From Trypanosoma brucei (Eukaryota), in the NCBI GenBank assembly GCA_000002445.1, contig CH464491.1, forward strand, positions 3,168,001 to 3,232,000: 64,000 nucleotides of DNA. Direction: 5' to 3'. Position 1 is the stretch's first letter. Each line of letters begins with the position of its first letter. The translations under genes and the position numbers were made by a program. The notes under the pieces were generated by a model that had not been told where the DNA came from, made no database searches, and saw only the letters and a program-made list of their open reading frames with translations. This document shows, one piece after another, positions 7,007 through 27,613 of the stretch.

Positions 7007-7042
7007 CCTCCTCCTCCTCCTCATTATTATTATTATTATTAC
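7007..7042. repeat. (CTC)6 immediately followed by (ATT)6 trinucleotide repeats
   Basis: Direct read: ctcctcctcctcctcctc attattattattattatt. Confidence 0.85.
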
Positions 7043-8424: not shown

Positions 8425-8470
8425 TTGTCTTTTGTCTTTTGTCTTTTTTGTTTTCTTTTTGTCTTTTTTG
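8425..8470. repeat. Imperfect (TGTCTTTT)n tandem repeat
   Basis: Direct read: ttgtcttttgtcttttgtcttttttgttttctttttgtcttttttgttttg. Confidence 0.8.
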
Positions 8471-8771
8471 TTTTGTGAGTGTGTGTGTTGTTAAACAAAT
8501 TATAAAATAAAGCAGATGCGGCGAAAAAAAAAATGGGAAGAATGAAAGAAAGGAATATATATATATATATATATATTTATGTTTATTTATGTTTATGCTC
8601 ATACATCTGAGAACGGGTGGAAAAGGGATTACAAATGGTGGCATCGAGTATTTTTCAAAGCAGGAGGCAAATTGCGGGAAGAAGAAGGGATATGAGGGGG
8701 TGGGTTTGCGGAGAAATTTGTGTGTATATATGTGCTAAAAAAGACAAAAACAAGAACAAAAAACTGCAAAT

Positions 8772-8774
<3 letters not shown>

Positions 8775-8818
<44 letters not shown>
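8775..8818. repeat. (TA)n microsatellite, about 22 units, followed by (TTTA)n at 8819-8836
   Basis: Direct read: atatatat... from 8775 to 8818, then atttatttatttat. Confidence 0.9.
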
Positions 8819-8822
<4 letters not shown>

Positions 8823-9255
8823 TTATTTATTTATATCTATGTTTCAATATTTTCGCATATTTATATGTGACCTTGATCTCTCTGAGTTTATTCTGTGTAT
8901 ACAATTAGCATATGTATATTATATGTTAGTTTGCTGGCTTAACTCGCTTCGTTTATATTTGTAACTTTCCTCTTTTGTTTGTTTGTTTGTTGCGGAAGGG
9001 AATTTGACTGGACGTGTCCGTCTTTTTGTTTTTGTTTGCAACTGTTCTTTTTTGTGTGTTTCTTATTTAATTACTTTTTGACTGTGTATTTGTGTGGATA
9101 TTTATACGCAAATATCTATATCTATATATATGTATTTATATACATATGAACTTATATGAGTATAAATATAAATTTGAATGAGAATGAATAGACACGAAAA
9201 GAGCCATTATGTTGAAGTAAGTAAGCCGAACCCAGATGAAATTATATAGGGTGAG

Positions 9256-9308
9256 AAGGGTTGGAAATAATAATAATAATAATAATAATATATATATATA
9301 TATATATA
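9256..9308. repeat. (AAT)8 followed by (TA)n, about 12 units
   Basis: Direct read: aataataataataataataata then tatatatatatatatatatataat. Confidence 0.85.
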
Positions 9309-12300
9309 ATCATGGATGTGAGCTCAGTGTTGTTGTTGTTATAATGATTATTTTCTTTTGCCCTCATGCAAATGCTGACGGACTCGAACACGTGGGGACC
9401 ACCACATCGTCTTACTTTCCCTTCCTCTTTTTTTTTTGTTTTCTCCTTCTTATATGTTTTTTTGTTTTAATTCTAATTGGCTCGTTGCGTTTTGTTTGGT
9501 TGAGCTATTTTCGACACGAACCCGCTATGGTAGTTTTTTTTTGTTACTCTGTTTCTGCCTACTTGGTTACGTTAACTTTTTTCTTTTTTCTTTTTTCTTT
9601 TTTTCCATTTGTTTCTTCGCATGGAGGTGAGTATTCATGAAAAGTGATGGAGAGTAATTTAGAGGAAGCGAAGGGGAAGAAAAGAGCGGAGGGGGAAAAA
9701 AAAAAGGATTGTTTTGGGAGAGAAAGGGGAGAAATAAAAAAAGTTGTTGCTGTTGTTATTGTTATTAAAAAAAAAAACAAAAACAAGAGAGGTTTTAATT
9801 AGAGCGAGGAAAGAGAAAGGTGAAGGAAAGAAGGAAAGGGGGGAGGGAAAAAGTTTGTATTGGCGGTGGGATTTGAGGTGCAACGGATCCGAAATCACGG
9901 AACAATTACATTTAATCTCATTTCTCTGCGGTCATGTTGAGCCGTAAGGAACCCTCGCATACGGGAACCTTCACCATTTTCTTTTTATATTTTTCTCTTT
10001 CTTTTTTTTCTTTTTTCTTTTTTTTTTAAAAAAACATGGAGATGACATTGGATAACAAAACAAATACGCCCATATTTAAATATTTACATATTTATGCAAC
10101 TGTTAATTCATTAAAAGGTGGAGGGGAGGGAATGAACAGAACCAACAATGATGGGGGAAGGGGTTTAACAATGAATAAGTGAAACAGTGGATCAAGTGAA
10201 AATTATTGTATTTATGTTTTATATTAATATAAATACAAATTTAAACGAATTTGAATAAATAACTGAATTTAAGCAATATAATAAATCTATATACGGACAT
10301 GTAGAGTTGCACTTTTTTTTTTTAATTTGAAAGGTTATGAAATTAAAAACAGTTGCGACTGCTTCAGCAAATGAGGAATGTTTCCGTTTCTAAGTGTCAA
10401 TGTCCGTGTGAGTGGCTGAGAGGACGAAAAATATGAATAATATGACAAAAATAGAAGAAGCACAATCGAAGAGACAAACAGAAAAAAAGAAGCATAACGA
10501 AGAATATATAAGCCACGTAAAATATTTAAATGAAATAAAACAAAATGAGGAAGCACTATATTGGACACACAATGAGAAACAGCGGAAGTAATGACAAAAT
10601 TCACTCTTCCCCTCCTTTTATTATTATTATTGTTATTGTTATTATCTTAGTTTCCTCCCTTTTTTTTTTAACATTTGTGACGTGGCGTTTCTTTATTTAC
10701 GTTTTTGGTGGGTTCGTTACCACCGCTCTTCTCGGTGCATGTGTATATGTATATGCTTGCTCACTTTTTTCCCTTGTTTTTTAATATTAATCATATTATT
10801 ATTATTACAATCATATCCCTTGGTTCCATCTACAACCTTTCGTGGGGCAGATATTTATGTCCCCTATATTCCTTTCTCTTTTAAAAAAAAATCTTTATTT
10901 ATTTGATCTGGTTCTTTTTTCCTCTTTATATATATATATATATATTAACGAAACTACTTTTGTTTTTTTAAATTTTTTTACTATTACGGCACAAGCGAGT
11001 GAATCCTCACCCAAAACGGCGGGGAAGGAGCATCAACTTGTGAGGTTCCTCATGAAAAATATAAATATTGCATGCGGATACCAAACTTGCCGATGCTTAC
11101 ACGCATTAAAAAAGAAGGTTTCGTTTTGTATTTTTGAAAAAAAAAACAAAGAAGGAAAAGGAAAGATACATATATATATAAATATGAATGCAAAGAGAAA
11201 ATTAATAGACAAGGAGAGGGGCGTAACTCGAGCTTCCTTCAAGTGTTTTTCCTTTTCATTTTATCAATATTATTTTATTTATCTTTTCTCGGTGTTGTTC
11301 TTCTTTTATCTTTTCTTCTATCCTTTTCACGTGACACTATTTCCTTTGGTTGAAACTAACGAATAATATACGCCTGTGCATAAGCGATGGTGAGTGACTA
11401 AATGAATAAATAAATAAATGCTCTTTTGAATAAATGGAGGGAATATTTAAGACTCAGAAACGTAAGTTACGAGGAGGAAGGAGGAAAAAGGGACGAGAGG
11501 TGTCTTTCCTTCTTTATTTTTGCCTTTTATTGTGTGCACTTTTGCTACTCCTCGTTGCCGCATTTCCGTTCTTCCGTAACGGGGGGGGGGAAAAAAAAAG
11601 GAATTGTGCGTTTGGTAAAGAAATGAAGGTATAGAAGCGGCTTCCGCTTGTCCCCGCATGTCCTCGTGCATGTTTAAAGCCGCGCTCTTCCCTCCATTCG
11701 TGCTGATGAGTATTTGTTCATAAATATGAGAGGAAATATATATATATATATATTTATAGGTATATATTTACTTGACTTCTCTTTTCCTCTTTTTTTAATT
11801 ATTGTAAACTTTTATATTTATGTACATGCACATTAAGAGCGCACCCTAATGTCGTATTGCGGTGATGATTCACCGTTGTTACCCATCATCATGGCCAAAG
11901 TAATAATTATATATATATATATTATTGCATTCTCATTATGGTGCCCTTTTTCTTCCCTTTCCCTTTCTACTTACCTTCTTTGTTATCATAATTATTAAAA
12001 CTGTACGTACTTTACCTCAATTAAGCAATAATGGTAACCGAAAGTAGAAGAAGAAAAGGAAAAAAAAGGATGCGGAAGGATAATTACGCACAACACTTTA
12101 ATTATTATTATTATTATTACATTATTATTACTATTATTATTGTTTGTTCCTTTGTGTACTTCCTTGCCACTTATACGCGTACCTTTCATTGCTTTGGCAC
12201 TGATCATATGAATTAAATTTAAGGATTTTAATTATGGTGATGATTGTTGTTATTAAAAAAAAACAATAATAACTATTATTTTATATTGTGCCTTTACTCG

Positions 12301-13764
12301 TTGCAACCATCATACCCTCGTGGATTGCATTGTTTCGTTGGCGTGGAGGTAACAAACCACATAAACGAGCCAAATGACTGCACATATAGCGGAAGGAAAT
12401 AAAACAAAGGAGAAAGTAAAGCAAATTAAAAAAAAGAGGGAGCGAGAAGGATTTAAAAGAAACATTTTTTTTTCTTAAAGATGAGTCGACTTCTACCATT
12501 CGTGTTTATCGATCCATATTTGTATATGTTTATTTATTTATTTGTATATACGAAAAGAAGATAAGGAATGGGGGAAAAGAGGCATGAAGAAGTGAGAAGA
12601 GGATGAGGAAGAGAAGGAAATAAAAGAAAAGAAAAGAAAAAAAAAGCGATAGAAAACAGAAAGAAAAAGGAAAAAGAAAAAAAAATGAAGAAAAGAGAAC
12701 AAGGTGCTGGTGTGCCGCGTACTTGAAATTCACACTGTTCCCGTTCTTTCACATCGAAGTTGGGAAACCAATAAAACAAGAGGTATAAATCATATCATAA
12801 TTATTACTGTTTGGAGATGACTTTCTTTTCTTTTCTTTTTGTTTTTCTCTTTTTTTTTTTTTTACCCCTCTCCCATTCAGCTTTTCTTTTGTGTACCTTT
12901 TCTTTACAGCACTCTGTGTTTCAACCGACCGGATAATGGAGACCAGCAAAAACAACCACAAAATGCGAGTAAAACCAGAGCAGCAAGAAAAGAAGCGAAA
13001 AAGACAGCGCCCATTTATGGGTTTATTTACTTTAAAATTAAAATATATATATATATATATATTATACTCACATATTTGTGTGGTGACGAAGGTAAGGAAA
13101 GGGGAAATTATTGCAAGTTGTTTATATGAAACTGGCAAACAAAAACTCTTTTTCTATCTTTTTTTTTTAAAAAAAAGAAAAAGAGAAGAGGGGAGAGGAG
13201 AGGAGAGGAGGATTTCAAAAAAAAAAAAGAAGCAAGTGCGTGTGCGCACGGATGGCTGGACGGACTTTAACACATGGTGCAACACGATTTGATTTTCAGT
13301 TTGCTTTTCATTTTCTTCGATCCGACAGATAACTGCTCCGTGGGAATGACTTGCTCTCTTTTTTTTTTTAATTATTATTATAATTATTATGATTTCGTTT
13401 CGTAAATGATTTCCACTTTCCCAGTCCCTGCTGCACTTCATATCCGCGCAACATTTTCTTTGTTTTGTTTTGCTTATTCTTACCCTTCTTGTTATCTTTG
13501 TTTTTTTTAAAATTATTGCTTATTTATATTAGTTTCTATAGGGAATAGTCATATAATTTAGTTGTTTGAGACTGTGAGTCACAAGGCAGCGCCGCTTGAA
13601 CTTTCCAGCATATTGAGATGAGGAACCTGCAGACCCACACATGAAAGGGGTAATATGATTCTTTTTTTAAAAAAAAATATATAAATATATTCTGCTTTTC
13701 ATCCAAGAATAATAATAATGAAAAAGAAAGGTGCAATCCTTTTTGTTTTCAAGGAAAGGTCAGT

Positions 13765-13837
13765 CAATTTTTCCTCTCTTTCTTTTTCGGTTTCTTCGTG
13801 TGCCTGTTTGTTTTTTATATTGTTGTTTTCACACCAG
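13765..13837 (+). promoter_or_regulatory. Polypyrimidine tract plus AG upstream of the EF-hand gene (probable SL acceptor region)
   Basis: ttcctctctttctttttcggtttcttcgtgtgcctgtttgttttttatattgttgttttcacaccag lies about 200 nt upstream of ATG 14045. Confidence 0.4.
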
Positions 13838-14044
13838 TTAACAAGGGCTTTGTGCTCCGCAAAGTTAGCATCATAAAGTAAGGCGATAGAATACAAAAGA
13901 AAAAAAAGCTCCATCAAGAAAAGAGCGGGAGGAAAAAAAAAGAAAAATTATACACCGAAGATATATAGAAAGGGGCCATAAGCCTCGCATATAGCAACAA
14001 ACAAGGAGGACAGACAAAAGGAAAAAAAAAGGGAGGACCAGGAT

Positions 14045-15808
14045 ATGGCGTTTCTCGTACAAGTAGCAGCGGATATATTCAATAATAAAGTGAACTTTGA
14101 GCTTAGCTTCCCGTCCAGACCCAGCATATCGGAACTGACGCGTTCGGCGGAAACTGCTTTCTCAAATGAAATTTCTCTTCGCCGACCGGACAATGTGCCA
14201 TCGCACAAATTTCATTCATCGAAGATCAAAATGTACGATGAGGAGCTCAACAAATGGGTGGATCTAATAAGGGAGGACCAGTTAACGGATTATTGTCAGC
14301 TTTATGTTTTCCAACCTCCAAATGAATGGCACAAGGAAAGCCAAAAGGAAATCCCCCCTGCAATGAAGCCACCGAGTTCCGGCCAACGACACTCCGCAGG
14401 TGGTTCCTTTTCACAGGGCTCACGTGTCACTCCTAATGGAAGCCTTTCCATGCAGGGGGCTCTCGCACCGTACAACGGGTCTCGCTCACCCGTTAGCCAC
14501 CGCAGTGAGTCGCAACAGGCTCGTCACGCTTCGTTCCACGGGAGTACCTCAAATGCGCTCGTGCCGCGTGCCCAGACAGATGTGTCGCAAGAAGAAAAAC
14601 TGCGTGTGCTATTCGCGGAACTCGATGTAAAGGGTAACCGTGTGCTCGACGTTGAGGACTTCCGACACGGTTTCACTGTGTTTAATCTCAACTTCAGCCC
14701 AGCTACGGTGGACGATCTCTTTGAAAAGGGTGACAGCAACCGGGACGGGCGGATTACCTTTTCAGAATTTGAGCGGTTCGGACGGCTCTATCCAATCATG
14801 ACGGATTGCCTCTATTTCCGTTCCAGGGCTTTTTGGGAAGAAGAACAAATCAGGCGCTCTATTCAAAATGAGCGACAGGCAGTGAGACAAGCGGAGCAAG
14901 CGGTGGAGCAGGCCCGACGAGCCCTTGAGGAGGCAGAAAATGAGACAGATGCCGCTAAGGATGCCGTCGCAACTGCGGATGCGGATCTCAAGGATCGAAC
15001 GGACCGTCTGCGGGACCTCACGAGGGACATGGACAACGCAAAGCGCGAGAAGGAGCGGGCCATCCGCGAGAAGAAGGATCGCGAGAAGGAACTCTTCGAG
15101 ATTCGTGAGCGTGAAAAGGAGCTTCGGAAAGACGCACAAGAGGTGGCTCGTGAGGCTGAGAAGCAGGACCGACGGGCGTTTTCTCTCGCTGGGGAAGCGA
15201 GTGCTGCCGATGACAAGGTTCGTGCCTTGGAGAAGGCCCTTGACGAGGCTCGTCGTGCCGCTGAGCGGGCGCACAACGCCGCAGATCAGGCTGCCAGAGA
15301 CGCTGATATCGTGAAACTCCGCATGCAAGATGCTACACGAGATGCCGAGGAGGTGGCACGGGAGGTTCCCCGGGCGGAGGACGCGGTGCGGGCCGCAGAG
15401 CACAACGTATCAGCAGCAGATCAAGGGGCTCGGGAACTGGAAGGAATGGGCCGTGTGCTTTCGCGGGAGATAGAAGAGGCTGGGCAGCGACGGGATCAGA
15501 GCGAAAAGGCAGTTGAGGAGGCGAGAGGTATGATGCATGTGAAAGAGCGTCAGTTGGAGGAAGCAAAACAGCACGTTTCGGAGAGGGAACACGCCGTAAG
15601 GCTTAAGGAAATCGAACTGGCTGATCAGCTGAAGCAGCGTGAACTCGTGTCACAGCACGAGAGGACACTTATAGAGCAGGAGCTTCGGCTACGCGAACAA
15701 AGAGACAGTTTAGAGGAGCGGGAGACGAAATTGATGTCAGAAGCCAGCAGCTTCCTGGGCAATCTCCGTACGCAGTTACACGGTGGGAGGTCCTATCCGC
15801 GAGATTAA
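14045..15808 (+). CDS. EF-hand calcium-binding plus long coiled-coil protein (587 aa) with a compact N-terminal domain
   Basis: Two EF-hand-like loops (DVKGNRVLDVEDF; DSNRDGRITFSEFERF), then about 300 aa of heptad E/R/K/A-rich coiled coil (REKERAIREKKDREKELFEIREREKELRKDAQE...). Intact ORF with coding-like composition. Confidence 0.7.
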   Translation: MAFLVQVAADIFNNKVNFELSFPSRPSISELTRSAETAFSNEISLRRPDNVPSHKFHSSKIKMYDEELNKWVDLIREDQLTDYCQLYVFQPPNEWHKESQKEIPPAMKPPSSGQRHSAGGSFSQGSRVTPNGSLSMQGALAPYNGSRSPVSHRSESQQARHASFHGSTSNALVPRAQTDVSQEEKLRVLFAELDVKGNRVLDVEDFRHGFTVFNLNFSPATVDDLFEKGDSNRDGRITFSEFERFGRLYPIMTDCLYFRSRAFWEEEQIRRSIQNERQAVRQAEQAVEQARRALEEAENETDAAKDAVATADADLKDRTDRLRDLTRDMDNAKREKERAIREKKDREKELFEIREREKELRKDAQEVAREAEKQDRRAFSLAGEASAADDKVRALEKALDEARRAAERAHNAADQAARDADIVKLRMQDATRDAEEVAREVPRAEDAVRAAEHNVSAADQGARELEGMGRVLSREIEEAGQRRDQSEKAVEEARGMMHVKERQLEEAKQHVSEREHAVRLKEIELADQLKQRELVSQHERTLIEQELRLREQRDSLEERETKLMSEASSFLGNLRTQLHGGRSYPRD

Positions 15809-16748: not shown

Positions 16749-17378
16749 TTGCATACGGAGAACACGACACAGGCAATGCGGCGTAGTCCTTGTGCTGATT
16801 ACTTCACATCTCTAATGGCAACCGCCGGTTTTGTTCGATGCCGCGGTTTGAGTTCTAGCGGCCAAACAAACACCACACAAACTGTACACGTTCTCCATAG
16901 CCTATACCGTCGGTTGCGGAAGGAAGGTGAGGAACGAAAGATGCTGGAGGATGCCCTCTCCGTTAACCAACTCGAGACGAACATTCGTATCGGATTACGT
17001 CTTTTGCATTGCCACACACAGCTGGTGGATTTGAACAGACAGCTGAAGGAGTTACCCTTTTGGCGGCTAGTGAGGCGAATGTCACTTGCTGTTGCACGCC
17101 GTTATTATGCCTGGCGAATTTTTTCTATCCGGCTTCGATTGCGTAGCACAACGGCGATTAGCAACGCCCTGGTGTACACGCTCTTCCTAGTGGTTTGCTT
17201 TATGCTCTACGAGATCTATTGCGTTTGCCGCATTGGGGTGACGCGAGCGGAGGATCGGTACAAATCATTAGCCGTCCCGATAGTACAGACGTTTGAAGCC
17301 CTCGAGGAGGCGGCACGGCGACGAAAAGACATCTTGTTGAAGGAAATGGAGGGGGATATAGTTCGGCAAAGGAATTAG
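16749..17378 (+). CDS. Hypothetical small protein (209 aa) with one predicted TM helix. Start is uncertain among ATGs at 16749, 16776 and 16815.
   Basis: Intact ORF on the coding strand in an otherwise gene-dense interval. Hydrophobic segment ALVYTLFLVVCFMLYEIYCVC. Basic/hydroxylated N-terminus (MATAGFVRCRGLSSS) resembles a mitochondrial presequence. No recognisable family. Confidence 0.4.
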   Translation: MHTENTTQAMRRSPCADYFTSLMATAGFVRCRGLSSSGQTNTTQTVHVLHSLYRRLRKEGEERKMLEDALSVNQLETNIRIGLRLLHCHTQLVDLNRQLKELPFWRLVRRMSLAVARRYYAWRIFSIRLRLRSTTAISNALVYTLFLVVCFMLYEIYCVCRIGVTRAEDRYKSLAVPIVQTFEALEEAARRRKDILLKEMEGDIVRQRN

Positions 17379-18244: not shown

Positions 18245-20011
18245 ATGTCCGTGGCCTCTGAGGCAAATGACGTCGTATCGTTCCTCTCCAAGGTTGGGGA
18301 GCGCTACAAGCAGCACCGCGAGTTACTCCGCCGGAAGTTTTTGGAAGACGAGCGTCGCGATTGCCCCTTCAAACCAACATTGTCCAAATATACTTCACAC
18401 AGGAAACCGAGCAAAGGCTCCGAGTGCGTTGAGGCTGTGGAGAAGCGGTTATATCAACTGCATGTGCGCCAGCAGGAGTTGGCGGAAGAGCGTCAAGCTG
18501 CGCATAACAAGAGGGAGAGTGCCGAGTTGAAGGCAGTGATGCGGCCTCCGCGTCTCACCGCACAGGCGCGTTCTCTTTCGCCACGCGATCCAGCAGAAGT
18601 ATCACGGCAATGGTTGCAGAAGCGTGAAGAGAAGTTGATCCGGTTGCGTGAGGCCATCATAAAAGGAGACCTGGACGCGATGCAGTCTAAACCAACTATC
18701 TCTTCATATGCCGAAGCAAACATCACCGCTGAACGTAGAAACGGGAAAAGTATAGAAGATTATCTATTAGCTGAGCATGAGGCGAGACGAGAGCGAATGC
18801 ATCATCATTATGAAGGGGGCACAACGGCTAGTGGTCGTTCTTCTTCCCCTCTACGGCGTGTCGATTCGCAACCCGTGTTCAGACCTCGCATATCCAATTA
18901 TGCGCGACGACTCTCACTCCCTGGTCGCGTTGTGGATCGTTTACTTTCAAAAAAGAGCAGGAAAGGGGATGCGCTGCGTGACGAAAATTGCACTTTTGCA
19001 CCTCGTGTGTCATCGACCTCGACTAGGTTGCTAAGATATTTCTACAAGAATCCCAATGTGTCAGTGTACGATCGCTTATGCGATGAAAGTTACATGAGAC
19101 CTAATGGTTGCTATGCGAAGAAGGGTTCGTCTCATGTGGAACCTGGGAGCTTTGGTGTTCCGCATATAAACGAGACGTCGCGCGCAATAGTTGAACGTAA
19201 AAGAACTGGCGACGATGCGCCACTGCGGACGTATCAGCTTCGAAGCCCTACTGAACGACTTCACGCCTGCAGGGATCCCACGGCTTCGAGTGGCCGGCAC
19301 AGACGGCACTGTCAACATATGATTAGTGAACAGCTTGAAAAGGAGATATCGCAATGTACGTTTCGACCACGTGTTGACGAGGAATCGAACCAGATGTGGC
19401 GGCGGCGGTTACAACAGTTGAAGGGGGGTGGACACCCAAGAAATGTTTCAGGACTCCGTGAGCTCCTTTGGCGTCGTTCAGAAACACGTATGAAAGAGGA
19501 GTTGCGCAGGCAACGTGAGCTGCAAGAACAGAAAGAGGTGGAGGAGTGTACCTTTCACCCCAAAGTAGGGCGGGCCCCTCGAAGGCGAGTTGAGTGCGCA
19601 CTTTCCGTTCCGGAACGCAATGAGGCATGGCAGCAGCGACGGCAGAAAAAACTCAACTGTACCCGGGAAGAGGTTGAGCGTTCTGAGACATCCGAATGCT
19701 CGTTTCATCCCTCCGTTTCTTCGCTGCATTCTGCAGCTTCGGTGCCAGCCTCTAACGTAGCCGGGTACGATTCACATCTGCGGCGTCACGCGGAGTCGCG
19801 GAGGATAATTCGGGAGATGCAGGAGTGGTGGCGGCCGAAGTCTCACATATCTCGTAACAGCGGGTCAGCTCGTCGGGTGCGTTCGCAACCCCAAAAACGG
19901 GAAAAGGAATGGTGGGACTTGCCGCAGAAATGCGAGCTCAGCAGTTTTACGCGCACGTGCTCTCCCACTTCGTGGGATGATCAACTTAGTTCGTCACAGT
20001 TGGGTTCGTGA
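18245..20011 (+). CDS. Hypothetical basic protein (588 aa) with five dispersed C-[PTS]-F-x-P-x-[VL] repeats
   Basis: Repeats read directly: DCPFKPTL, NCTFAPRV, QCTFRPRV, ECTFHPKV, ECSFHPSV. Each is preceded by an E/R-rich segment. R/S/E-rich overall. Intact ORF, + strand. Confidence 0.6.
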   Translation: MSVASEANDVVSFLSKVGERYKQHRELLRRKFLEDERRDCPFKPTLSKYTSHRKPSKGSECVEAVEKRLYQLHVRQQELAEERQAAHNKRESAELKAVMRPPRLTAQARSLSPRDPAEVSRQWLQKREEKLIRLREAIIKGDLDAMQSKPTISSYAEANITAERRNGKSIEDYLLAEHEARRERMHHHYEGGTTASGRSSSPLRRVDSQPVFRPRISNYARRLSLPGRVVDRLLSKKSRKGDALRDENCTFAPRVSSTSTRLLRYFYKNPNVSVYDRLCDESYMRPNGCYAKKGSSHVEPGSFGVPHINETSRAIVERKRTGDDAPLRTYQLRSPTERLHACRDPTASSGRHRRHCQHMISEQLEKEISQCTFRPRVDEESNQMWRRRLQQLKGGGHPRNVSGLRELLWRRSETRMKEELRRQRELQEQKEVEECTFHPKVGRAPRRRVECALSVPERNEAWQQRRQKKLNCTREEVERSETSECSFHPSVSSLHSAASVPASNVAGYDSHLRRHAESRRIIREMQEWWRPKSHISRNSGSARRVRSQPQKREKEWWDLPQKCELSSFTRTCSPTSWDDQLSSSQLGS

Positions 20012-20520
20012 TAATTACGGGATGCGCGGTCCCTGTGGTCGCGTGTTGACTGGTGTTGCGCGCTTTGTTTAGTTGCGGCAGCAATGCGGTGCGCAACCCC
20101 CCGTTTTTTTTTAGACGACAATGGATGAGGTTGAGGCGTAGCGACGGCGCTCGTGCGGCTCAGACGGTAGTTGTCTATCATAGAGTTCACCCATACATGA
20201 TTATTGTCATTGATATGGTAAAGCATATACATTGAGGATCTTCATGGCAGCAGACAGAATGATGCAAGTGGGAGCACAAATGAGAAAAAAAAACAAAAAA
20301 AATCTACTTGTTCTGTTGGTTGTTGGGATTCCTTTTTTGTTTTGTTGCTTTTACTTTGTTTCACCGTTTGATGCATTGTGGTAGTGTGTTGGATACGCTG
20401 CTTTCCACTTTATTCTTCTTTACGCGCTATCACTCGGTTCCATTACGTGATGTGGGGGCACTTTCACGAAGGTTCCGGCCACTGAACTGCTGCCCCGGCA
20501 GAGGGGGATTATTTCAGCAT

Positions 20521-20560
20521 TACTTGTTCTTCTTCCCCTTTTTGTCCCTTCGTGTAGGTC
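20521..20560 (+). promoter_or_regulatory. Polypyrimidine tract plus AG upstream of the kinesin gene
   Basis: tacttgttcttcttcccctttttgtcccttcgtgtag lies about 200 nt upstream of ATG 20761. Confidence 0.4.
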
Positions 20561-20760
20561 TTGGCGAGACCTGAAAGGACGTAGTTGAGGAGTTTCTTAC
20601 AAGGAAAGGGAAAGAGAGCAGAAATACACACATACACTACATATATATTTCTCGTTCCATTAAAGTGCATTAAAAACATATATCTGACCTTGCGAAAGGC
20701 GCGACCGCCTGTGTTACCGACCGGTGTTACAACACAAGGGTGGTAATAGTGGGAGGGGCG

Positions 20761-23511
20761 ATGGAAAATATTCGCGTGGTGGTACGTGTGCGGCCGTTTA
20801 TTCCGGGCGAAAACCCCCAGCAGTGCGTTACTGTTCATGACAGACAGATACGCGTCGGCGACGATCGGACGTTCGCGTTCGACAAGGTTTTCGATATGAG
20901 GGCTACATGCGATTTAGTGAACAGTTCAGTTGGAGACCCCTTAATTTCTGCGTTTGTTGATGGGTACACCGTTTCTACAATAGCGTACGGACAAACAGGT
21001 GCCGGGAAAACACACACCATGTCACGTCTATCCAGGTACGTTGTGGAACGTGTACATAAAATACTTACGAATGGCGCCGCCGAGCATTCAGGCTTAGCTT
21101 CACCAGGTGCGAGGTCAAACTCGCTGGCGGATGCTGAAGCTGCTGCAACTCAGCCCGAGTTTCGGTTTTCGGCTGTGGAGGTATACAACGATCAGATTAG
21201 CGACCTTGCCGTTTCTGCATCGTCATCATCAGCCCCTCGCCAGGTTCGAACGTTATCACTGCGGGAGGATAATCGCTGTGGTGTGTTTATTAAGGGTCTC
21301 ACTGAGACGGCCGTTGATTCTGCGGAAGGGTTGCTTACCCTTATAGAGAGATGCATATCCTCTCGTCGCACTGCAATGACGCAAGCAAACGAGACAAGCT
21401 CTCGTTCCCATTGTCTACTGACTGTGGCGCTCGTTTACCGGGGCAAAGTCGGACGGTTTGCCCTCGTTGATCTTGCGGGGAGCGAGCGGATGAAAAAGGC
21501 ACACGGCGCAACGCCGAGTGCTGCAGGTGAAGGACATTCGGGAGCAGCTGCGTCGCGGGTTAGAGAGGGCATCAGTATCAACAGTGGTCTCTTGGCCCTG
21601 GGGAATGTTATATCGGCTTTGTGTGCACGCAAGTCACATGTACCGTACCGAGCGTCGAAGTTAACGCGCCTCCTTCAACCAATGCTTAGCGGCAACTCAA
21701 AAACGACAATGATAGCTTGTGTTTCACCAGTGGCTGCGTCATTCGAGGAAACCCTCAACACGTTAAAGTACGCGAACCGTGTGAAGTCTCTCCGCACGAC
21801 GCCATTGCAAATGGCTGCTGTTTCCTCCATGGAGGACGCGCAGCGTGCCATAGAAATGCTGCATCAGCAACTTCTGGAAGCGAAGCAAGTGGGTTGTGGG
21901 CAGTTTTCCGGCATGCCATCATTTCCAACTGGCGATGTAAATGCAAAGTTGGAGGAGCTGGAGGAGAAACTAAGGGTGGAACAGAAGCTTACGCAGCGCC
22001 TAAAGGACGATCTTTTCAATGCGGAGTACACCGCGATGGTTGAGGTTGAGAAGCGGAAGAGTCTCGAAAAGCGGATTGCACTTCTTGAGTTAGTGGAGAA
22101 GGAACGATGTGTGGGTCGTGCGTCAACGAGCACTGCGGAGGTTAGTGCCGTTGGTAGTACTGTGTCGTGCCCTAGAAGGTCAGCAGAGTCTAGTGACCCT
22201 TCCGACGAGGGCGGGGATATAGAAAACAACAGGAAACTTCTAGAGAGACTAGAAGCAGAGCGGGATGAACTCGAAGCACTTAAGAAGCAAAAGGAGACAG
22301 ACTCTAAGCGGCTTGCAGAACTCGATATGGGAGGACAACATTCCATAGGGTGTGACTTTGACGGTAGCTTCTCGCAGGAGAATCTTTTGAGAGACATTGC
22401 CCTGAAGGAGCGGCATATTCAGGAACTTAAGCAGCGAAACGAAGAGGCCGTGTGGGCACTGGAAGACTCAAAGCGCAACCAGGAAGAGGTTCTTTCCGTG
22501 AAGCGTCGTCTTGAAGAAGACCTAGCGAATGCGGTCACGAAATTGGAATCAACTGAAATGGAGCAACAACGGAAGCAGGCGGAGCGGAATAGGTTGTTTG
22601 CACTGCATGAGGAGCGGCTACGCAAGGCCGAAGAAATGGCTGAAACCTACAGGCGTCGTGTGGAGGAGGCGACATTGCAGCTCAATCAGCGTCAATGTAA
22701 CGAGGAACTGATTCAACAGCTCCAGGCACAGATTCCGGAGATGCGTGAAGAGTTGAATCGCCACGTCGTTGCTGTACGCGAGGGACAGCAGCGCGAGCAG
22801 AAGATGGCTGCCTCATATGTACAAAAGGTCAAGAAAATGAAACGACAGATGCGTGAGACGGAGGCTCAGGTCTCTCGACTTCAGGTGGAGCTACAGAAGA
22901 AGGAACGTGAAATTGCTCGGGTTAAATCCAATATTGCTGATAGGTTCGACCGCTGCCTATCTAAAGCCCACGTCGAGCGGAAGCAACTGTTGCGAAACCT
23001 TCAATGCGATTCTTCCGGCCGATCTTCCAGCGTACAGAGGGAAATTGACTTAGAGCTGAGGGCGCTCGCAACGATTGAAACAGATCTTGATGATCTCATG
23101 TTGGAACGTTGTGAAATGAAAGCGCGGCTCGATGAGGTTTGCGGAAGCCCCAACGTGGTGAATAGTTGCGCGGTGGCAGCGAAAGGGTTTGAGTGTCAAT
23201 CCCGTCGCGCCGGCTCGCCAAACAGTTGTAGTGGTGCGCAGGCTGAGGCTTCTACTGACTACAGCGAGGCGCTGGGTGATGGAAATGCTGTTGTGAAGGA
23301 ACAGGCGACGAATCCACTGGTTTTCCAAACGTTGAGGCGACTGGAGGAGGTGGAGGACAGCATCGACAGCCTTCAAGAGGCACGTAAATACCACTTACAG
23401 CGGGTCCGGCGTCTACAAAATAGCTCGGCTTCGGCGCAGGGTTCTGTTACGTCCAGAGCTTGTGAATTGCTGCAGCGCAGCATTAGTGATTCTTTTAGAC
23501 AAACTTCATGA
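20761..23511 (+). CDS. Kinesin-like protein: N-terminal motor domain plus about 550 aa coiled-coil tail. ATG 20761 is preferred over 20740.
   Basis: IRVVVRVRPF (N-terminal beta strand), GQTGAGKTHTM (P-loop), SSRSH (switch I), DLAGSE (switch II), VPYRASKLTRLLQ (kinesin signature). Tail is E/K/R/L/Q heptad-rich. Confidence 0.85.
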   Translation: MENIRVVVRVRPFIPGENPQQCVTVHDRQIRVGDDRTFAFDKVFDMRATCDLVNSSVGDPLISAFVDGYTVSTIAYGQTGAGKTHTMSRLSRYVVERVHKILTNGAAEHSGLASPGARSNSLADAEAAATQPEFRFSAVEVYNDQISDLAVSASSSSAPRQVRTLSLREDNRCGVFIKGLTETAVDSAEGLLTLIERCISSRRTAMTQANETSSRSHCLLTVALVYRGKVGRFALVDLAGSERMKKAHGATPSAAGEGHSGAAASRVREGISINSGLLALGNVISALCARKSHVPYRASKLTRLLQPMLSGNSKTTMIACVSPVAASFEETLNTLKYANRVKSLRTTPLQMAAVSSMEDAQRAIEMLHQQLLEAKQVGCGQFSGMPSFPTGDVNAKLEELEEKLRVEQKLTQRLKDDLFNAEYTAMVEVEKRKSLEKRIALLELVEKERCVGRASTSTAEVSAVGSTVSCPRRSAESSDPSDEGGDIENNRKLLERLEAERDELEALKKQKETDSKRLAELDMGGQHSIGCDFDGSFSQENLLRDIALKERHIQELKQRNEEAVWALEDSKRNQEEVLSVKRRLEEDLANAVTKLESTEMEQQRKQAERNRLFALHEERLRKAEEMAETYRRRVEEATLQLNQRQCNEELIQQLQAQIPEMREELNRHVVAVREGQQREQKMAASYVQKVKKMKRQMRETEAQVSRLQVELQKKEREIARVKSNIADRFDRCLSKAHVERKQLLRNLQCDSSGRSSSVQREIDLELRALATIETDLDDLMLERCEMKARLDEVCGSPNVVNSCAVAAKGFECQSRRAGSPNSCSGAQAEASTDYSEALGDGNAVVKEQATNPLVFQTLRRLEEVEDSIDSLQEARKYHLQRVRRLQNSSASAQGSVTSRACELLQRSISDSFRQTS

Positions 23512-25759: not shown

Positions 25760-25862
25760 TCTTCTTTCTGTTAACCCACCGTCGTGATTGTTTCTATCCC
25801 TTTTTCCTTTTTTCTTCTTCTTTTCTCCCAGGTTTCCTTTCCTTTCCTTTTTCTCACTCGTA
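25760..25862 (+). promoter_or_regulatory. Long polypyrimidine tract plus AG upstream of the CHFR-like gene. The ORF-track N-terminal extension 25784-25939 is its translation artefact.
   Basis: ccctttttccttttttcttcttcttttctcccaggtttcctttcctttcctttttctcactcgtag. In-frame translation gives a poly-F/L/S peptide with no domain. Confidence 0.45.
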
Positions 25863-25939
25863 GCTCTGGTGGCGAAGCAACGGAGAGGGAGAGGTACTAT
25901 TTGTGTGTGTGTTTTAGAGGAGAGGAGAAAAGAGGGAAG

Positions 25940-27613
25940 ATGTCAGGTTGCGACGGGACGGAGGGCCGCTTTGGTCGAATTTCCTCGTGGGAGCCGAGCA
26001 CGCCACCCGATGTTGTCACCGACTCCGTTGAGGACGCCTTCGAAGAGGTCGCACCTTCGGTGAATGGACCACTCATCGCACGCCTTATTCCGATACGCGA
26101 CGGCTCCACTGCTTCACTGCGGGTACCAATGCCAATACTTGAGATATACAGAGATTCAGGCACTATCACAATGGGCCGCTCAAGGGAACTGCCTGTTGAG
26201 TGCCGCGTAGATGTGGCACGTGTATCAACTCAGCACTGTGAGTTGCGTGTTAATGCTGTCACTCGGCAGGTGACTGTGCGAGACATATCGTTAAATGGAA
26301 CATTCGTAAATGGGAAGCGGTTAGAGAAAGGTGTTGACGTGGAGCTGCAGTCTGGCGACCAAATTTCCTTCGTGAAATCCCTTCCCACTGGTACCACTGC
26401 AACGTCAACTCCGGCACAGACCTCGTCATCTGAGTCTGCAAATGTGAGCAGTGGTGGTGGAAACGGTGCAGAATACGTGTTTCAGAGGGTGTCCAGCACA
26501 CAAAGTGTTTCGCAAATGGTAGAGGAGCTTACGTGCTCCGTGTGCAAACATCTCTACCATCGGCCCTGCAGTGCATTGCCTTGCATGCATGTGTTTTGTG
26601 CTTCGTGTTTGAGCAAGTGGTTAGCGTGCGGTAACGTCACGTGTATGGAGTGCCGTGCGGAGCTGTCAGAGGTTCGCCCAACGCATAAGCTACAGAACTG
26701 TGTAGAGCAACTCTTGAAACTCAACCCGGGGCTCTGTCGTAGCGCCGAGGAACTGGCGGAGTGTGGGTTCAACGACGATATTCCCCCCGAGGGAAGAAAG
26801 TTACTGAAGCGGACACGCAGGGTTCGGGATGATGACGGTGATGACTACTCCGATACGGGGAGTGATCTCGATGATGATGATGATGATTTCGGTAGTGAAT
26901 TCAATACAAGCAGTGGGGGTGATGGCGTTAATGCAACTCATGTTCCTCAACTGTACCAAGGCCAAACGCATGGTCATGCGCCAGCAACTGGGTCTTGCAA
27001 GCACTGTGAAGCTCCTTCTGCGGTGGACGGTTTCCGTTGCCCTGCGAGGGGGATGCACCAGTCTTGTGCACGGTGTCGTCGGCTATTCCCCATGCGTCCA
27101 CTCTGCACTCGGCCGCAACGGTGCCATCTCTGCAGCACCCCGTATTGTAATTTGTACTACAAGGATGAGGGTGGTTGTCCAGTTGGCGCTGACGGGGGCC
27201 TTACCATCGTTTCGCAGTACCGTGCGCCGCAAGCCCTTCCACCAAACCTGTTTGGTGGCAACAAGGTGGAACAAAACATTGTTTCAAGTTATTTGATGGT
27301 CAAACACGTGGTGGTTGAGGATGTTTGGGGAGAATGCCTCCAGAAGTTGAGTGGTCGTGAATGGGTGCCTGATATTACTTGTGTAAATGGGCCTGTGACA
27401 GCAGATTCTGCTCTGTGTGAAGGCTGCATGGACATCCTCTTTGCCGCATTGTTGTTTCATTACCGTCGCTGCATACCTCGTGCTGAGTTACCATATTCTG
27501 TGACGGACAGACCGAACTGTTGGTACGGCCTGAACTGCCGCACACAGTTTCACAACATGCAGCACGCAAACAAATATAACCACGCGTGCTACCAAGAAAA
27601 GCGGAAAGAGTAG
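25940..27613 (+). CDS. CHFR-like E3 ubiquitin ligase: FHA domain, RING finger, Cys-rich region, and a C-terminal PBZ (PAR-binding) zinc finger
   Basis: FHA signature: TMGRS...C..VDV..VSTQHCEL......VTVRDISLNGTFVNGKRL. RING: CSVCKHLYHRPCSALPCMHVFCASCLSKWLACGNVTCMEC. PBZ-like: RPNCWYGLNCRTQFHNMQHANKYNH, which fits CxYGxxCx(5-6)Hx(4-5)YxH. D-rich acidic linker (DDDGDDYSD...DDDDDD). Confidence 0.75.
   Translation: MSGCDGTEGRFGRISSWEPSTPPDVVTDSVEDAFEEVAPSVNGPLIARLIPIRDGSTASLRVPMPILEIYRDSGTITMGRSRELPVECRVDVARVSTQHCELRVNAVTRQVTVRDISLNGTFVNGKRLEKGVDVELQSGDQISFVKSLPTGTTATSTPAQTSSSESANVSSGGGNGAEYVFQRVSSTQSVSQMVEELTCSVCKHLYHRPCSALPCMHVFCASCLSKWLACGNVTCMECRAELSEVRPTHKLQNCVEQLLKLNPGLCRSAEELAECGFNDDIPPEGRKLLKRTRRVRDDDGDDYSDTGSDLDDDDDDFGSEFNTSSGGDGVNATHVPQLYQGQTHGHAPATGSCKHCEAPSAVDGFRCPARGMHQSCARCRRLFPMRPLCTRPQRCHLCSTPYCNLYYKDEGGCPVGADGGLTIVSQYRAPQALPPNLFGGNKVEQNIVSSYLMVKHVVVEDVWGECLQKLSGREWVPDITCVNGPVTADSALCEGCMDILFAALLFHYRRCIPRAELPYSVTDRPNCWYGLNCRTQFHNMQHANKYNHACYQEKRKE

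What the first reader, a model, noticed from the sequence alone, without database searches (positions are those of the whole stretch)
18245..20011. Basic protein with five spaced E-C-[TS]-F-x-P-x-V repeats
DCPFKPTL, NCTFAPRV, QCTFRPRV, ECTFHPKV and ECSFHPSV recur at roughly 60-120 aa intervals. Each follows a charged E/R-rich stretch in an otherwise low-complexity R/S/E-rich protein. A short invariant Cys-x-Phe-x-Pro core repeated five times suggests a repeated ligand or metal-contacting module. It could also be a cytoskeleton-binding short linear motif. I could not place it in a named family from memory.
Basis: seen in the sequence. Interest (0 to 1): 0.5.

Follow-up and report, generated by a model that had tools for sequence, protein, structure and literature searches.

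The report
Unnamed Cys-x-Phe-x-Pro repeat protein, probably microtubule-binding
This Trypanosoma brucei gene (Tb927.11.12170, "hypothetical protein") encodes a basic, non-globular protein with nine evenly spaced copies of a short Cys-Thr-Phe-x-Pro-x-Ile motif; the motif turns out to define a large, unnamed protein family found across protists and algae, and the only studied carrier is a Toxoplasma protein seen by cryo-EM wrapped around tubulin fibres.

Summary
The ORF at 18245-20011 (+) encodes 588 aa with a pI of 10.0.

Ortholog alignments show nine Pro-centred units, at P44, 102, 150, 214, 253, 306, 375, 439 and 489. Five of them keep the Cys.

The window is T. brucei chromosome 11 and the gene is Tb927.11.12170, which is uncharacterised. 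A profile search found 2,331 related cluster representatives, in kinetoplastids, green algae, a metamonad and an oomycete. Of the 146 new hits among the top 150, 133 carry at least two [EG]-C-[TS]-F-x-P-x-[IV] motifs. The spacing is sharp, with a median of 53 aa and harmonics at two, three and four times that. Pfam has no family for it and I found no paper describing the motif.

AlphaFold2 gives "long charged helix, extended motif, short helix" beads with no tertiary packing. No second Cys or His is conserved near the motif, so a metal site is unlikely.

The only hit among solved structures is Toxoplasma CIP3 (PDB 9Y9Z, E = 2.6e-10). CIP3 is an extended conoid-fibre protein that wraps tubulin protofilaments.

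My best reading is a multivalent staple for the tubulin lattice. This is inferred, not shown. I rate it a new variant of a known kind, of moderate interest.

The parts
18245..20011 (+). Complete ORF of 588 aa plus stop. This is Tb927.11.12170, 'hypothetical protein, conserved': basic (pI 10.0), non-globular, with nine repeat units.
   Evidence: ORF listed. It is 99% identical to the T. b. gambiense DAL972 hypothetical protein. The gene ID follows from gene order 12150 (BILBO1), 12160, 12170, 12180 (kinesin), 12190 (FHA). pI.
18266..18361 (+). Conserved N-terminal helix (aa 8-39, DVVSFLSKVGERYKQHRELLRRKFLEDERRD) that leads into unit 1.
   Evidence: V10, V11, F13, L14, G18, Y21, E26, L27, L28 and R29 are nearly invariant in A1. 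The G..Y.EH.ELLR pattern persists in the 40-sequence alignment. AlphaFold2 predicts helix 10-39 with pLDDT around 88-93.
18362..18385 (+). Unit 1, CPFKPTLS (aa 40-47, Pro44). Keeps the Cys.
   Evidence: P44 is kept in 36/40 sequences. The predicted helix ends at residue 39.
18536..18559 (+). Unit 2, VMRPPRLT (aa 98-105, Pro102). Degenerate in Trypanosoma; other taxa have [C]TF-[KR]-P-x-[IV]-[TS] at this position.
   Evidence: Alignment A7, columns about 365-375. T105 is nearly invariant in A1.
18680..18703 (+). Unit 3, MQSKPTIS (aa 146-153, Pro150). Lacks the Cys.
   Evidence: P150 is kept in 36/40 and I152 in 26/40 sequences. There is a weak unit-HMM hit at 149-157.
18872..18895 (+). Unit 4, PVFRPRIS (aa 210-217, Pro214). 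Lacks the Cys and is followed by NYARRLSLPGRVVDRLL (the 'V-x-[DE]-R-L' element).
   Evidence: F212, P214 and I216 are invariant in A1. P214 is kept in 39/40, I216 in 34/40, and L233 is invariant. Toxoplasma CIP3 has the similar FKPYILEYSRKL.
18989..19012 (+). Unit 5, CTFAPRVS (aa 249-256, Pro253). Keeps the Cys.
   Evidence: P253 is kept in 38/40 and F251 in 28/40 sequences.
19148..19171 (+). Unit 6, SFGVPHIN (aa 302-309, Pro306). Lacks the Cys and is followed by ETSRAIVERKR.
   Evidence: P306, I308 and S312 are invariant in A1. P306 is kept in 38/40 and I308 in 31/40 sequences.
19355..19378 (+). Unit 7, CTFRPRVD (aa 371-378, Pro375). Keeps the Cys.
   Evidence: F373 is kept in 35/40 and P375 in 38/40 sequences. 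The predicted helix 349-370 ends right before the Cys.
19547..19570 (+). Unit 8, CTFHPKVG (aa 435-442, Pro439). This is the best-conserved unit.
   Evidence: C435 is kept in 39/40, F437 in 40/40 and P439 in 40/40 sequences. Helix 401-434 ends before the Cys. The general unit HMM scores it 28.7 bits.
19697..19720 (+). Unit 9, CSFHPSVS (aa 485-492, Pro489). It is followed by the conserved G-[YF]-[ED]-x-H/F-x-x-R-x-x-x-[SA]-R helix.
   Evidence: C485 is kept in 38/40, F487 in 40/40 and P489 in 39/40 sequences; G507, R514 and R519 are nearly invariant. Helix 455-484 ends before the Cys.

Best explanation
The ORF is a real, expressed-type protein-coding gene of Trypanosoma brucei (Tb927.11.12170). 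Its product belongs to an old, widespread and so far unnamed eukaryotic family.

The family is built from a unit of about 53 residues. Each unit is a 22-34-residue E/R/K-rich alpha-helix that ends in ...E-x-x-E-[LM]-x-E. The helix is followed directly by an extended anchor, C-[TS]-F-x-P-x-[IVLT]-[NST]-x-x-S-x-x-[LIM]. After that there is often a V-x-[DE]-R-L-[YLH] element that starts the next helix.

The T. brucei protein strings nine such units together, five of them with the Cys, and has no globular domain.

My proposed mechanism is that the protein lies extended on a tubulin polymer. The short Cys-Phe-Pro anchors would plug into equivalent pockets that recur on the lattice. The charged helices would act as spacers, and the strong net positive charge would add electrostatic affinity for the acidic microtubule surface. 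The protein would then be a multivalent staple, or ruler, that stabilises or cross-links protofilaments.

What is shown: the gene, the nine conserved units, the family and its period, the absence of a fold or a metal site, and the presence of the same units in a protein whose cryo-EM structure is wrapped around tubulin protofilaments.

What is inferred: that the motif itself is the tubulin-contacting element, that the T. brucei protein is on microtubules, and which microtubules those are. It is evidently not one of the modelled axonemal doublet inner proteins.
For: The motif is real and non-random. The nine units are conserved across 40 very divergent collinear homologs.

The family is large. 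There are 2,331 representatives at E<=1e-3 and 469 at E<=1e-10. Of the 146 new hits among the top 150, 144 carry the motif and 133 carry at least two copies. The taxa that could be named are Trypanosoma, Angomonas, Papus, Bryopsis, Tetraselmis, Haematococcus, Dysnectes and Lagenidium.

The unit period is sharp. Sixty per cent of 494 spacings fall between 45 and 69 aa, with a median of 53, and there are harmonics near 105, 155 and 212.

The family is basic, with a median pI of 9.4; the T. brucei protein has pI 10.0.

Two AlphaFold2 runs agree. They gave pLDDT 58.6 and 67.1 and pTM 0.21 and 0.24. Confident long helices stop at the residue before Cys40, 371, 435 and 485, the motif is extended and low-confidence, and there is no tertiary packing. 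This is the pattern expected of a segment that folds upon binding.

The only hit in the PDB is Toxoplasma CIP3 (9Y9Z). The trypanosome unit profile scores it at E = 5.4e-5 and the general unit profile at E = 2.6e-10. The matching units are FKPYILEYSRKL, CTFHPAVNPYP and, 53 aa further on, ECTFQPNIH. The authors of that structure describe CIP3 as an extended 'molecular glue' that wraps protofilaments 2-5 of the conoid fibre, bridges the seam and penetrates the tubulin wall (PMC12819142; PMC12905489).
Against: There is no direct evidence that Tb927.11.12170 localises to microtubules. Its ID appears in no paper main text and in none of the three cytoskeleton-paper supplements I could search.

I could not inspect the 9Y9Z coordinates. 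It is therefore unknown whether the CTFxP residues of CIP3 are modelled, or whether they touch tubulin rather than SAS6L, PRP, CF1 or inner proteins.

CIP3 is only a repeat-level relative. The full-length family profile does not hit it, and the two-unit C-terminal profile hits it only at E = 4e-4.

Neither the protein nor its orthologs are among the chains of any solved structure, including the trypanosomatid doublet-microtubule models.

The genome-wide RNAi cell-cycle screen shows no marked phenotype. The <2C ratio is 0.43 and the >4C ratio is 0.46, and the gene carries no cell-cycle flags.

The match between the 53-aa period and the 8-nm tubulin dimer (or the roughly 5-nm protofilament spacing) is arithmetic on a predicted helix, not a measurement.
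Confidence: 0.5

Rival explanations
1. The units are docking sites for a periodic cytoskeletal partner other than tubulin. One candidate would be SAS6L-type linear arrays or another filament-forming protein. The protein would then act as an adaptor or ruler for that partner.
For: In the conoid fibre, CIP3 also contacts SAS6L arrays, PRP, the CF1 coiled coil and luminal inner proteins (PMC12819142). Multivalent, regularly spaced short motifs between helices are typical of proteins that recruit many copies of one partner.
Against: No partner can be named from the sequence. The family is strongly basic, which fits the acidic surface of tubulin. CIP3 is described mainly as wrapping and penetrating the tubulin wall.
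Confidence: 0.2
2. The units form an intramolecular structural repeat, a helical-hairpin or solenoid-type fold. Cys, Phe and Pro would build each turn, and the protein would be a folded rod rather than a set of linear motifs.
For: The period is regular at about 53 aa and the units are helix-rich. The invariant hydrophobic residues could in principle pack.
Against: Two AlphaFold2 runs, one with a 40-sequence alignment, predict no helix-helix packing. pTM was 0.21 and 0.24, and the motifs are extended with pLDDT below 50-65. Foldseek against the PDB finds nothing at E<=10. Units are lost or degenerate in a lineage-specific way without disturbing their neighbours.
Confidence: 0.1
3. The invariant Cys is a lipidation (S-acylation) site repeated along the protein. 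It would tether a basic helical protein to the inner face of a membrane, for example between the subpellicular microtubules and the plasma membrane.
For: A single invariant cytosolic Cys per unit with no metal-ligand partners is unusual. Lipidation is one of the few reasons for such conservation. Trypanosome cortical proteins are often acylated (general knowledge).
Against: Phe and Pro are as invariant as Cys, which points to a shape-specific recognition motif. Four of the nine T. brucei units have lost the Cys but keep P-x-I. The Cys is preceded by acidic residues. CIP3 sits on and inside conoid fibres, not on a membrane.
Confidence: 0.07
4. Each motif is part of a metal- or small-ligand-binding module.
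For: The Cys is invariant. T. brucei happens to have His at the x position in two units (CTFHP, CSFHP).
Against: There is only one conserved potential ligand per unit of about 53 aa. Over 524 units, no other position between -15 and +20 has Cys or His in more than 8% of units. The x position is K, Q, R, A or T in most of the family. No compact module is predicted. Pfam finds no zinc-finger or other metal-site family.
Confidence: 0.03
5. The motif recurrence is a chance or low-complexity artefact in a spurious ORF.
For: The composition is R/S/E-rich.
Against: None of 100,000 shuffles gave more than two copies. Orthologs exist throughout Trypanosoma and far beyond, with the motifs in register.
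Confidence: 0.01

Closest known systems
Toxoplasma gondii CIP3 (CPH1-interacting protein 3, TGME49_225020; PDB 9Y9Z chain 63)
   Same: CIP3 carries the same units: FKPYILEYSRKL at about 484, CTFHPAVNPYP at 569 and ECTFQPNIH at 622. The last two are 53 aa apart, each preceded by a charged helix. It is also an extended, non-globular, coiled-coil and disordered protein of the tubulin cytoskeleton.
   Different: CIP3 is not an ortholog. It is 1,010 aa long with about four recognisable units. The full-length family profile does not detect it. The authors score it as restricted to a few coccidians (supplement table). It belongs to the conoid, an organelle that trypanosomes lack. The CIP3 passages I retrieved from its papers do not mention the motif.
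TPX2 / FAM161 (UPF0564) type microtubule-associated proteins
   Same: These are basic, largely unstructured or helical proteins that bind the lattice through short, repeated aromatic-Pro motifs. From memory, these are F-[KR]-A-x-P and T-x-P-x-x-F-x-[FL]. Distant members of the present family end with a similar W..-T-x-P-x-x-F-x-L-G element, for example LTVPKEFNLG and ITTPQPFKLG.
   Different: Pfam's TPX2 and UPF0564 models do not hit the T. brucei protein or 59 family members, even at E<=1. The core motif differs: C-T-F-x-P has an F-to-P spacing of 2 and an invariant Cys. The T-x-P-x-x-F element is absent from the Trypanosoma proteins, which have WWRPK at that place. The resemblance is recalled from memory and is a lead, not a test.
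Repeat-type filamentous microtubule inner or associated proteins (MAP6/SAXO Mn modules, apicomplexan SPM1, tau-type repeats)
   Same: The design principle is the same: many copies of a short conserved motif at a fixed spacing in a basic protein without a globular fold, thought to read out the tubulin lattice period.
   Different: There is no sequence relationship. No Pfam hits were found. The motif and the 53-aa period differ. Lattice binding has not been demonstrated for this family.
Tandem zinc-finger or metal-binding repeat proteins
   Same: A Cys recurs at regular intervals.
   Different: Each unit lacks the three or four ligands such modules require, and no compact fold is predicted.

Membership tests
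ECTFxP-repeat family (unnamed; defined here) | At least two copies of [EGDQ]-C-[TS]-F-x-P-x-[IVLT] | tested here: met
   The T. brucei protein has five copies. Of the 146 new hits among the top 150, 133 have at least two.
ECTFxP-repeat family (unnamed; defined here) | The motif directly follows an E/R/K-rich helix (E at -1, -4, -7; L/M at -3) | tested here: met
   Column frequencies over 473 units. AlphaFold2 helices end at residues 39, 370, 434 and 484.
ECTFxP-repeat family (unnamed; defined here) | Unit period of about 53 aa | tested here: met
   The family median is 53. The T. brucei spacings are 58, 48, 64, 39, 53, 69, 64 and 50.
ECTFxP-repeat family (unnamed; defined here) | Collinear architecture: N-terminal G..Y.EH.ELLR helix, nine units, then a terminal pair of invariant CTFxP units followed by G-[FY]-E...R-Q..A-R | tested here: met
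   The 40-sequence alignment A7 and per-column counts.
Tubulin-lattice-binding MAP/MIP (functional class) | Physical association with microtubules (localisation, co-sedimentation or structure) | not testable with these tools
   Only indirect evidence: the repeat-level relative CIP3 is tubulin-bound in cryo-EM. No data exist for Tb927.11.12170.
Axonemal doublet-microtubule inner proteins of trypanosomatids (modelled set) | The sequence or an ortholog is present among chains of solved doublet-microtubule structures | tested here: not met
   phmmer and two family-profile searches of all PDB chain sequences give no hit.
TPX2 family (Pfam TPX2 / TPX2_importin) | Match to the Pfam family model | tested here: not met
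   No Pfam hit at E<=10 for the protein. None in 10 members at E<=0.01 or in 59 members at E<=1.
FAM161 / UPF0564 | Match to the Pfam family model | tested here: not met
   Same searches.
Zinc-finger-like or metal-binding repeat | At least three conserved Cys/His ligands within one module | tested here: not met
   One invariant Cys. Every other position between -15 and +20 has Cys or His in at most 8.4% of 524 units.
Toxoplasma CIP3 orthogroup | End-to-end collinear similarity | tested here: not met
   The full-length profile A7 does not hit CIP3. Only unit-level matches are found.

The most novel reading that the evidence does not exclude
The C-[TS]-F-x-P-x-I unit with its spacer helix of about 53 residues is an ancient tubulin-lattice anchor, possibly dating to the last eukaryotic common ancestor. 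It would define a previously unrecognised superfamily of filamentous microtubule staples or rulers. Each anchor would insert its Cys/Phe/Pro into the same pocket of successive tubulin subunits or protofilaments. Tb927.11.12170 would span about nine lattice repeats on a specific trypanosome microtubule set, and Toxoplasma CIP3 would be a derived member adapted to the conoid fibre.
Probability: 0.35. Interest if true: 0.75.

Novelty: new variant of a known kind. Interest (0 to 1): 0.55.

Why it matters
If the reading holds, a short motif that is easy to recognise would label thousands of currently "hypothetical" proteins in protists and algae as lattice-binding cytoskeletal proteins. It would also supply a missing Pfam-type family.

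It would connect a structurally resolved Toxoplasma invasion-machinery component (CIP3) to a much wider family.

It would offer a simple handle for dissecting how stable microtubule arrays are built in parasites, such as the trypanosome subpellicular corset, the microtubule quartet and the basal bodies. The handle is mutating C, F and P in each unit.

The sharp 53-aa period makes the ruler idea directly testable by cryo-EM.

If the reading is wrong, the finding is still a well-defined, conserved repeat family of unknown function.

Tried and rejected
**Protein and structure searches**
- A Pfam scan of the protein at E<=10 found nothing.
- A sequence search of the PDB with the whole protein gave only a chance RtcB hit at E = 0.43.
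- PDB searches with the full-length ortholog profiles A1 and A7 found nothing. Only repeat-unit profiles reach CIP3.
- The search for homologous proteins was unproductive with repeat-unit alignments. A 42-aa unit alignment gave 40 candidates and no hits. A 200-aa alignment of concatenated units gave only three unnamed metagenomic hits. The word index evidently cannot retrieve this family from short motifs. As a result I could not obtain source names for most members. The taxonomic picture rests on the six of 30 cluster look-ups that name an organism, plus the Trypanosoma names.
- A Pfam scan of 59 family members for co-occurring domains found none that recur. One Peptidase_C1 hit in a 1,752-aa Lagenidium model is probably a fused gene model.
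- Foldseek of the AlphaFold2 model against the PDB gave no matches, as expected for a model with pTM 0.24.

**Literature searches**
- Motif strings (CTFxP, CxFxP, ECTFKP, TFxPxI and others) returned nothing relevant.
- Gene IDs returned nothing in paper main texts.
- A prefix search turned up Tb927.11.1220, a microtubule-quartet protein. That is a different gene, so I discarded it.
- The supplements of the TrypTag paper and of three cytoskeleton papers either do not contain the ID or are not held.
- The RIT-seq table gave the ID and showed no cell-cycle phenotype.

**Checks on the gene and window**
- I looked for a frameshifted remnant of the C-terminal tail that other trypanosomes keep. tblastn finds none downstream of the stop codon.
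- I considered whether the AT-rich 10 kb upstream is a centromeric array. It contains no long tandem repeats.
- Rfam and tRNA scans of the window were empty.
Full report
**1. The observation**

The window carries an ORF at 18245-20011 on the + strand, encoding 588 aa. Translation shows the five quoted strings exactly: DCPFKPTL (Cys40), NCTFAPRV (Cys249), QCTFRPRV (Cys371), ECTFHPKV (Cys435) and ECSFHPSV (Cys485).

I shuffled the protein's own composition 100,000 times. No shuffle had more than two C-x-F-x-P; 98.6% had none. Across all six frames of the 64-kb window, C[TSP]FxP occurs 11 times, and five of those are in this ORF.

The stated spacing of 60-120 aa is only approximate: the true gaps between the five copies are 209, 122, 64 and 50 aa.

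**2. Where it comes from**

The best database match is a T. brucei gambiense hypothetical protein at 99% identity.

The upstream ORF (14045-15808, 587 aa) has a BILBO1 N-terminal domain plus EF-hands. The downstream ORFs are a kinesin, an FHA-RING protein, a CFAP96-like protein and a VTC-domain protein. The literature gives BILBO1 as Tb927.11.12150 and VTC4 as Tb927.11.12220. A genome-wide RNAi table lists, in order, 12160 hypothetical, 12170 hypothetical, 12180 kinesin and 12190 FHA.

The gene is therefore Tb927.11.12170, "hypothetical protein, conserved". No paper in the searchable library mentions it in its main text. In the RNAi cell-cycle screen its values are unremarkable, with a <2C ratio of 0.43, a >4C ratio of 0.46 and no cell-cycle flags.

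**3. There are nine units, not five**

Orthologs from T. congolense, T. cruzi, T. rangeli, T. conorhini, T. theileri, T. melophagium and T. grayi, plus three more distant kinetoplastid-like sequences, align end to end. The F and P of the motifs are invariant.

The same alignment reveals further invariant P-x-I positions that have lost the Cys: VMRPPRLT (Pro102), MQSKPTIS (Pro150), PVFRPRIS (Pro214) and SFGVPHIN (Pro306). A unit HMM picks several of these up weakly.

I then built a 40-sequence alignment of very divergent collinear homologs, with 17% mean column identity. The unit Pro is kept in 36-40 sequences at eight of the nine units. The two C-terminal units are C-[TS]-F-x-P in 38-40 of 40. 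In other taxa the degenerate Trypanosoma units are canonical; unit 2, for example, is HCTFKPTIT in Angomonas.

The unit spacings in T. brucei are 58, 48, 64, 39, 53, 69, 64 and 50 aa.

**4. A large, unnamed family**

A profile of the ortholog alignment was searched against 1.84 billion cluster representatives. It found 2,331 proteins at E<=1e-3 and 469 at E<=1e-10.

Of the 146 new sequences among the top 150, 144 contain C-[TS]-F-x-P. 133 contain two or more copies, up to ten.

The consensus over 473 units is E..R..E..E[LM].E-C-T-F-x-P-x-I-N-x-x-S. It is often followed, about 20-30 residues later, by V-x-[DE]-R-L-[YLH], which starts the next helix.

HMM-defined unit spacings peak at 50-54 aa. 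The median is 53, and 60% of 494 spacings fall between 45 and 69. Harmonics appear near 105, 155 and 212, which is what occasional loss of a unit would produce. The family is basic, with a median pI of 9.4.

Members that carry a source name come from these organisms:
- Angomonas deanei
- Papus ankaliazontas
- Bryopsis sp. (green alga)
- Tetraselmis sp. (green alga)
- Haematococcus lacustris (green alga)
- Dysnectes brevis (metamonad)
- Lagenidium giganteum (oomycete)

All are labelled hypothetical or uncharacterised.

Pfam-A has no model for the family. There was no hit for the T. brucei protein at E<=10, none for ten members and no recurrent family in 59 members at E<=1. Full-text searches for the motif strings found nothing relevant.

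**5. Structure**

I ran AlphaFold2 with the 11-sequence alignment and again with the 40-sequence alignment. Both gave the same picture (pLDDT 58.6 and 67.1; pTM 0.21 and 0.24).

The model has confident long helices at 10-39, 65-98, 116-146, 170-195, 349-370, 401-434, 455-484 and 508-529. These stop exactly at the residue before Cys40, 371, 435 and 485. The motif itself is extended with low confidence and is followed by a short helix. There is no tertiary packing.

Foldseek against the PDB returns nothing. The repeats are thus equivalent "helix plus anchor" beads rather than a folded domain. This is how segments that fold on a partner usually look in AlphaFold2.

**6. Not a metal site**

Over 524 units, no position from -15 to +20 other than the motif Cys has Cys or His in more than 8.4% of units. 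That maximum is at the variable x between F and P, where T. brucei happens to have His twice.

**7. The one structural precedent**

A unit profile from the trypanosome sequences, searched against all PDB chain sequences, hits a single protein: CIP3 of Toxoplasma gondii (TGME49_225020, PDB 9Y9Z), at E = 5.4e-5. A more general unit profile built from 107 units of diverse members raises this to E = 2.6e-10, and it remains the only hit at E<=10.

CIP3 has four recognisable elements:
- FAPTLCEKSREII at about 236
- FKPYILEYSRKL at 484, which resembles T. brucei unit 4, FRPRISNYARRL
- CTFHPAVNPYP at 569
- ECTFQPNIH at 622, which is 53 aa after the previous one

The cryo-EM paper describes CIP3 as an extended "molecular glue". 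It wraps protofilaments 2-5 of the tubulin-based conoid fibre, bridges the seam, penetrates the tubulin wall and touches inner proteins, SAS6L arrays and CF1. Loss of CIP3 is mild alone but synthetically lethal with CF1 (PMC12819142; review PMC12905489; original naming PMC5740107).

The CIP3 passages I retrieved from these three papers do not mention the motif. The authors score CIP3 as confined to a few coccidians.

CIP3 is not an ortholog of the T. brucei protein. The full-length profile misses it, and a profile of the terminal two units reaches only E = 4e-4.

**8. Interpretation**

The features are: a basic charge, a non-globular architecture, a rigidly periodic helix-anchor unit, strong purifying selection on three anchor residues over very long evolutionary distances, and a tubulin-wrapped relative. 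The most economical mechanism for these is multivalent binding to a periodic polymer, most likely the tubulin lattice.

A fully helical 53 residues would span about 8 nm, the length of the tubulin dimer. The helices of about 30 residues span about 4.5 nm, close to the spacing between protofilaments. Both figures come from arithmetic on predictions and cannot tell longitudinal binding from lateral binding.

I could not read the 9Y9Z coordinates. The key step, that the anchor itself contacts tubulin, is therefore inferred.

Which microtubules the T. brucei protein might decorate is unknown. Neither it nor its orthologs occur among the chains of solved structures, which include trypanosomatid doublet-microtubule models (PMC7617938 listed). 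It is thus not one of the modelled axonemal inner proteins.

The rivals I considered are listed separately with their tests:
- a non-tubulin periodic partner
- an intramolecular solenoid
- repeated S-acylation
- a metal site
- chance

**9. Comparison with known families**

In function, the closest kind is the repeat-type filamentous MAP or MIP: TPX2/FAM161, MAP6/SAXO, SPM1 and tau.

Distant members of the present family end with W..T-x-P-x-x-F-x-L-G, for example LTVPKEFNLG. From memory, this resembles the T-x-P-x-x-F-x-F element of TPX2/FAM161. It is only a lead. Pfam's models for those families do not match, and the Trypanosoma proteins lack that element.

The core motif, with an invariant Cys and an F-x-P spacing, is distinct. 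I therefore file the finding as a new variant of a known kind, not as a member of any named family.

**10. Verdict**

The family is apparently undescribed. The function is plausible but unproven.

Interest is moderate (0.55). It would rise if the anchor-tubulin contact is confirmed in 9Y9Z or by experiment.

Noticed in passing
window 4000-14000: About 10 kb with low G+C (31-37%, against about 50% elsewhere) and few ORFs. It lies between a DEAH-box helicase gene (8-3277) and BILBO1 (14045-15808). It contains only short T-rich or AT microsatellites, no long tandem array, no tRNA and no Rfam hit. This is unusually long for an intergenic or UTR stretch inside a single same-strand gene cluster.
   Followed up: partly
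window 19960-20740: The T. brucei protein lacks the conserved C-terminal tail of about 80 aa (TQFVV...; KPSPVDFIINHHRAI) that T. cruzi, T. rangeli, T. theileri, T. grayi and more distant kinetoplastids keep. The T. congolense sequence, which is a partial record, also lacks it. tblastn finds no frameshifted remnant downstream of the stop codon, so this looks like a lineage-specific truncation.
   Followed up: partly
window 1-64000: All 17 ORFs of at least 250 aa are on the + strand, so this is one polycistronic unit. The neighbours identified by Pfam are a DEAH helicase (8-3277), BILBO1 (14045-15808), a kinesin (20740-23511), an FHA-RING-PBZ CHFR-like protein (25784-27613), a CFAP96-like protein (29537-30412) and a VTC4-type polyphosphate synthase (32149-34530).
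   Followed up: partly
window 16749-17378: A small ORF of 209 aa with a TTG start as listed and no Pfam hit. By position it corresponds to Tb927.11.12160, 'hypothetical protein, conserved'. I did not examine it further.
   Followed up: no
alignment A7, columns about 1150-1230 (proteins P0010-P0013, P0028-P0125): Distant family members carry a conserved C-terminal W..(I/L/V)T-x-P-x-x-F-x-L-G element after the last ECTFxP unit. It is reminiscent, from memory, of the TPX2/FAM161 T-x-P-x-x-F motif. Trypanosoma species have WWRPK at that place instead.
   Followed up: partly
protein P0089 (Lagenidium giganteum, 1752 aa): One family member is fused to a papain-type Peptidase_C1 domain (E = 7.6e-84). 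This is probably a merged gene model rather than a real domain combination.
   Followed up: no
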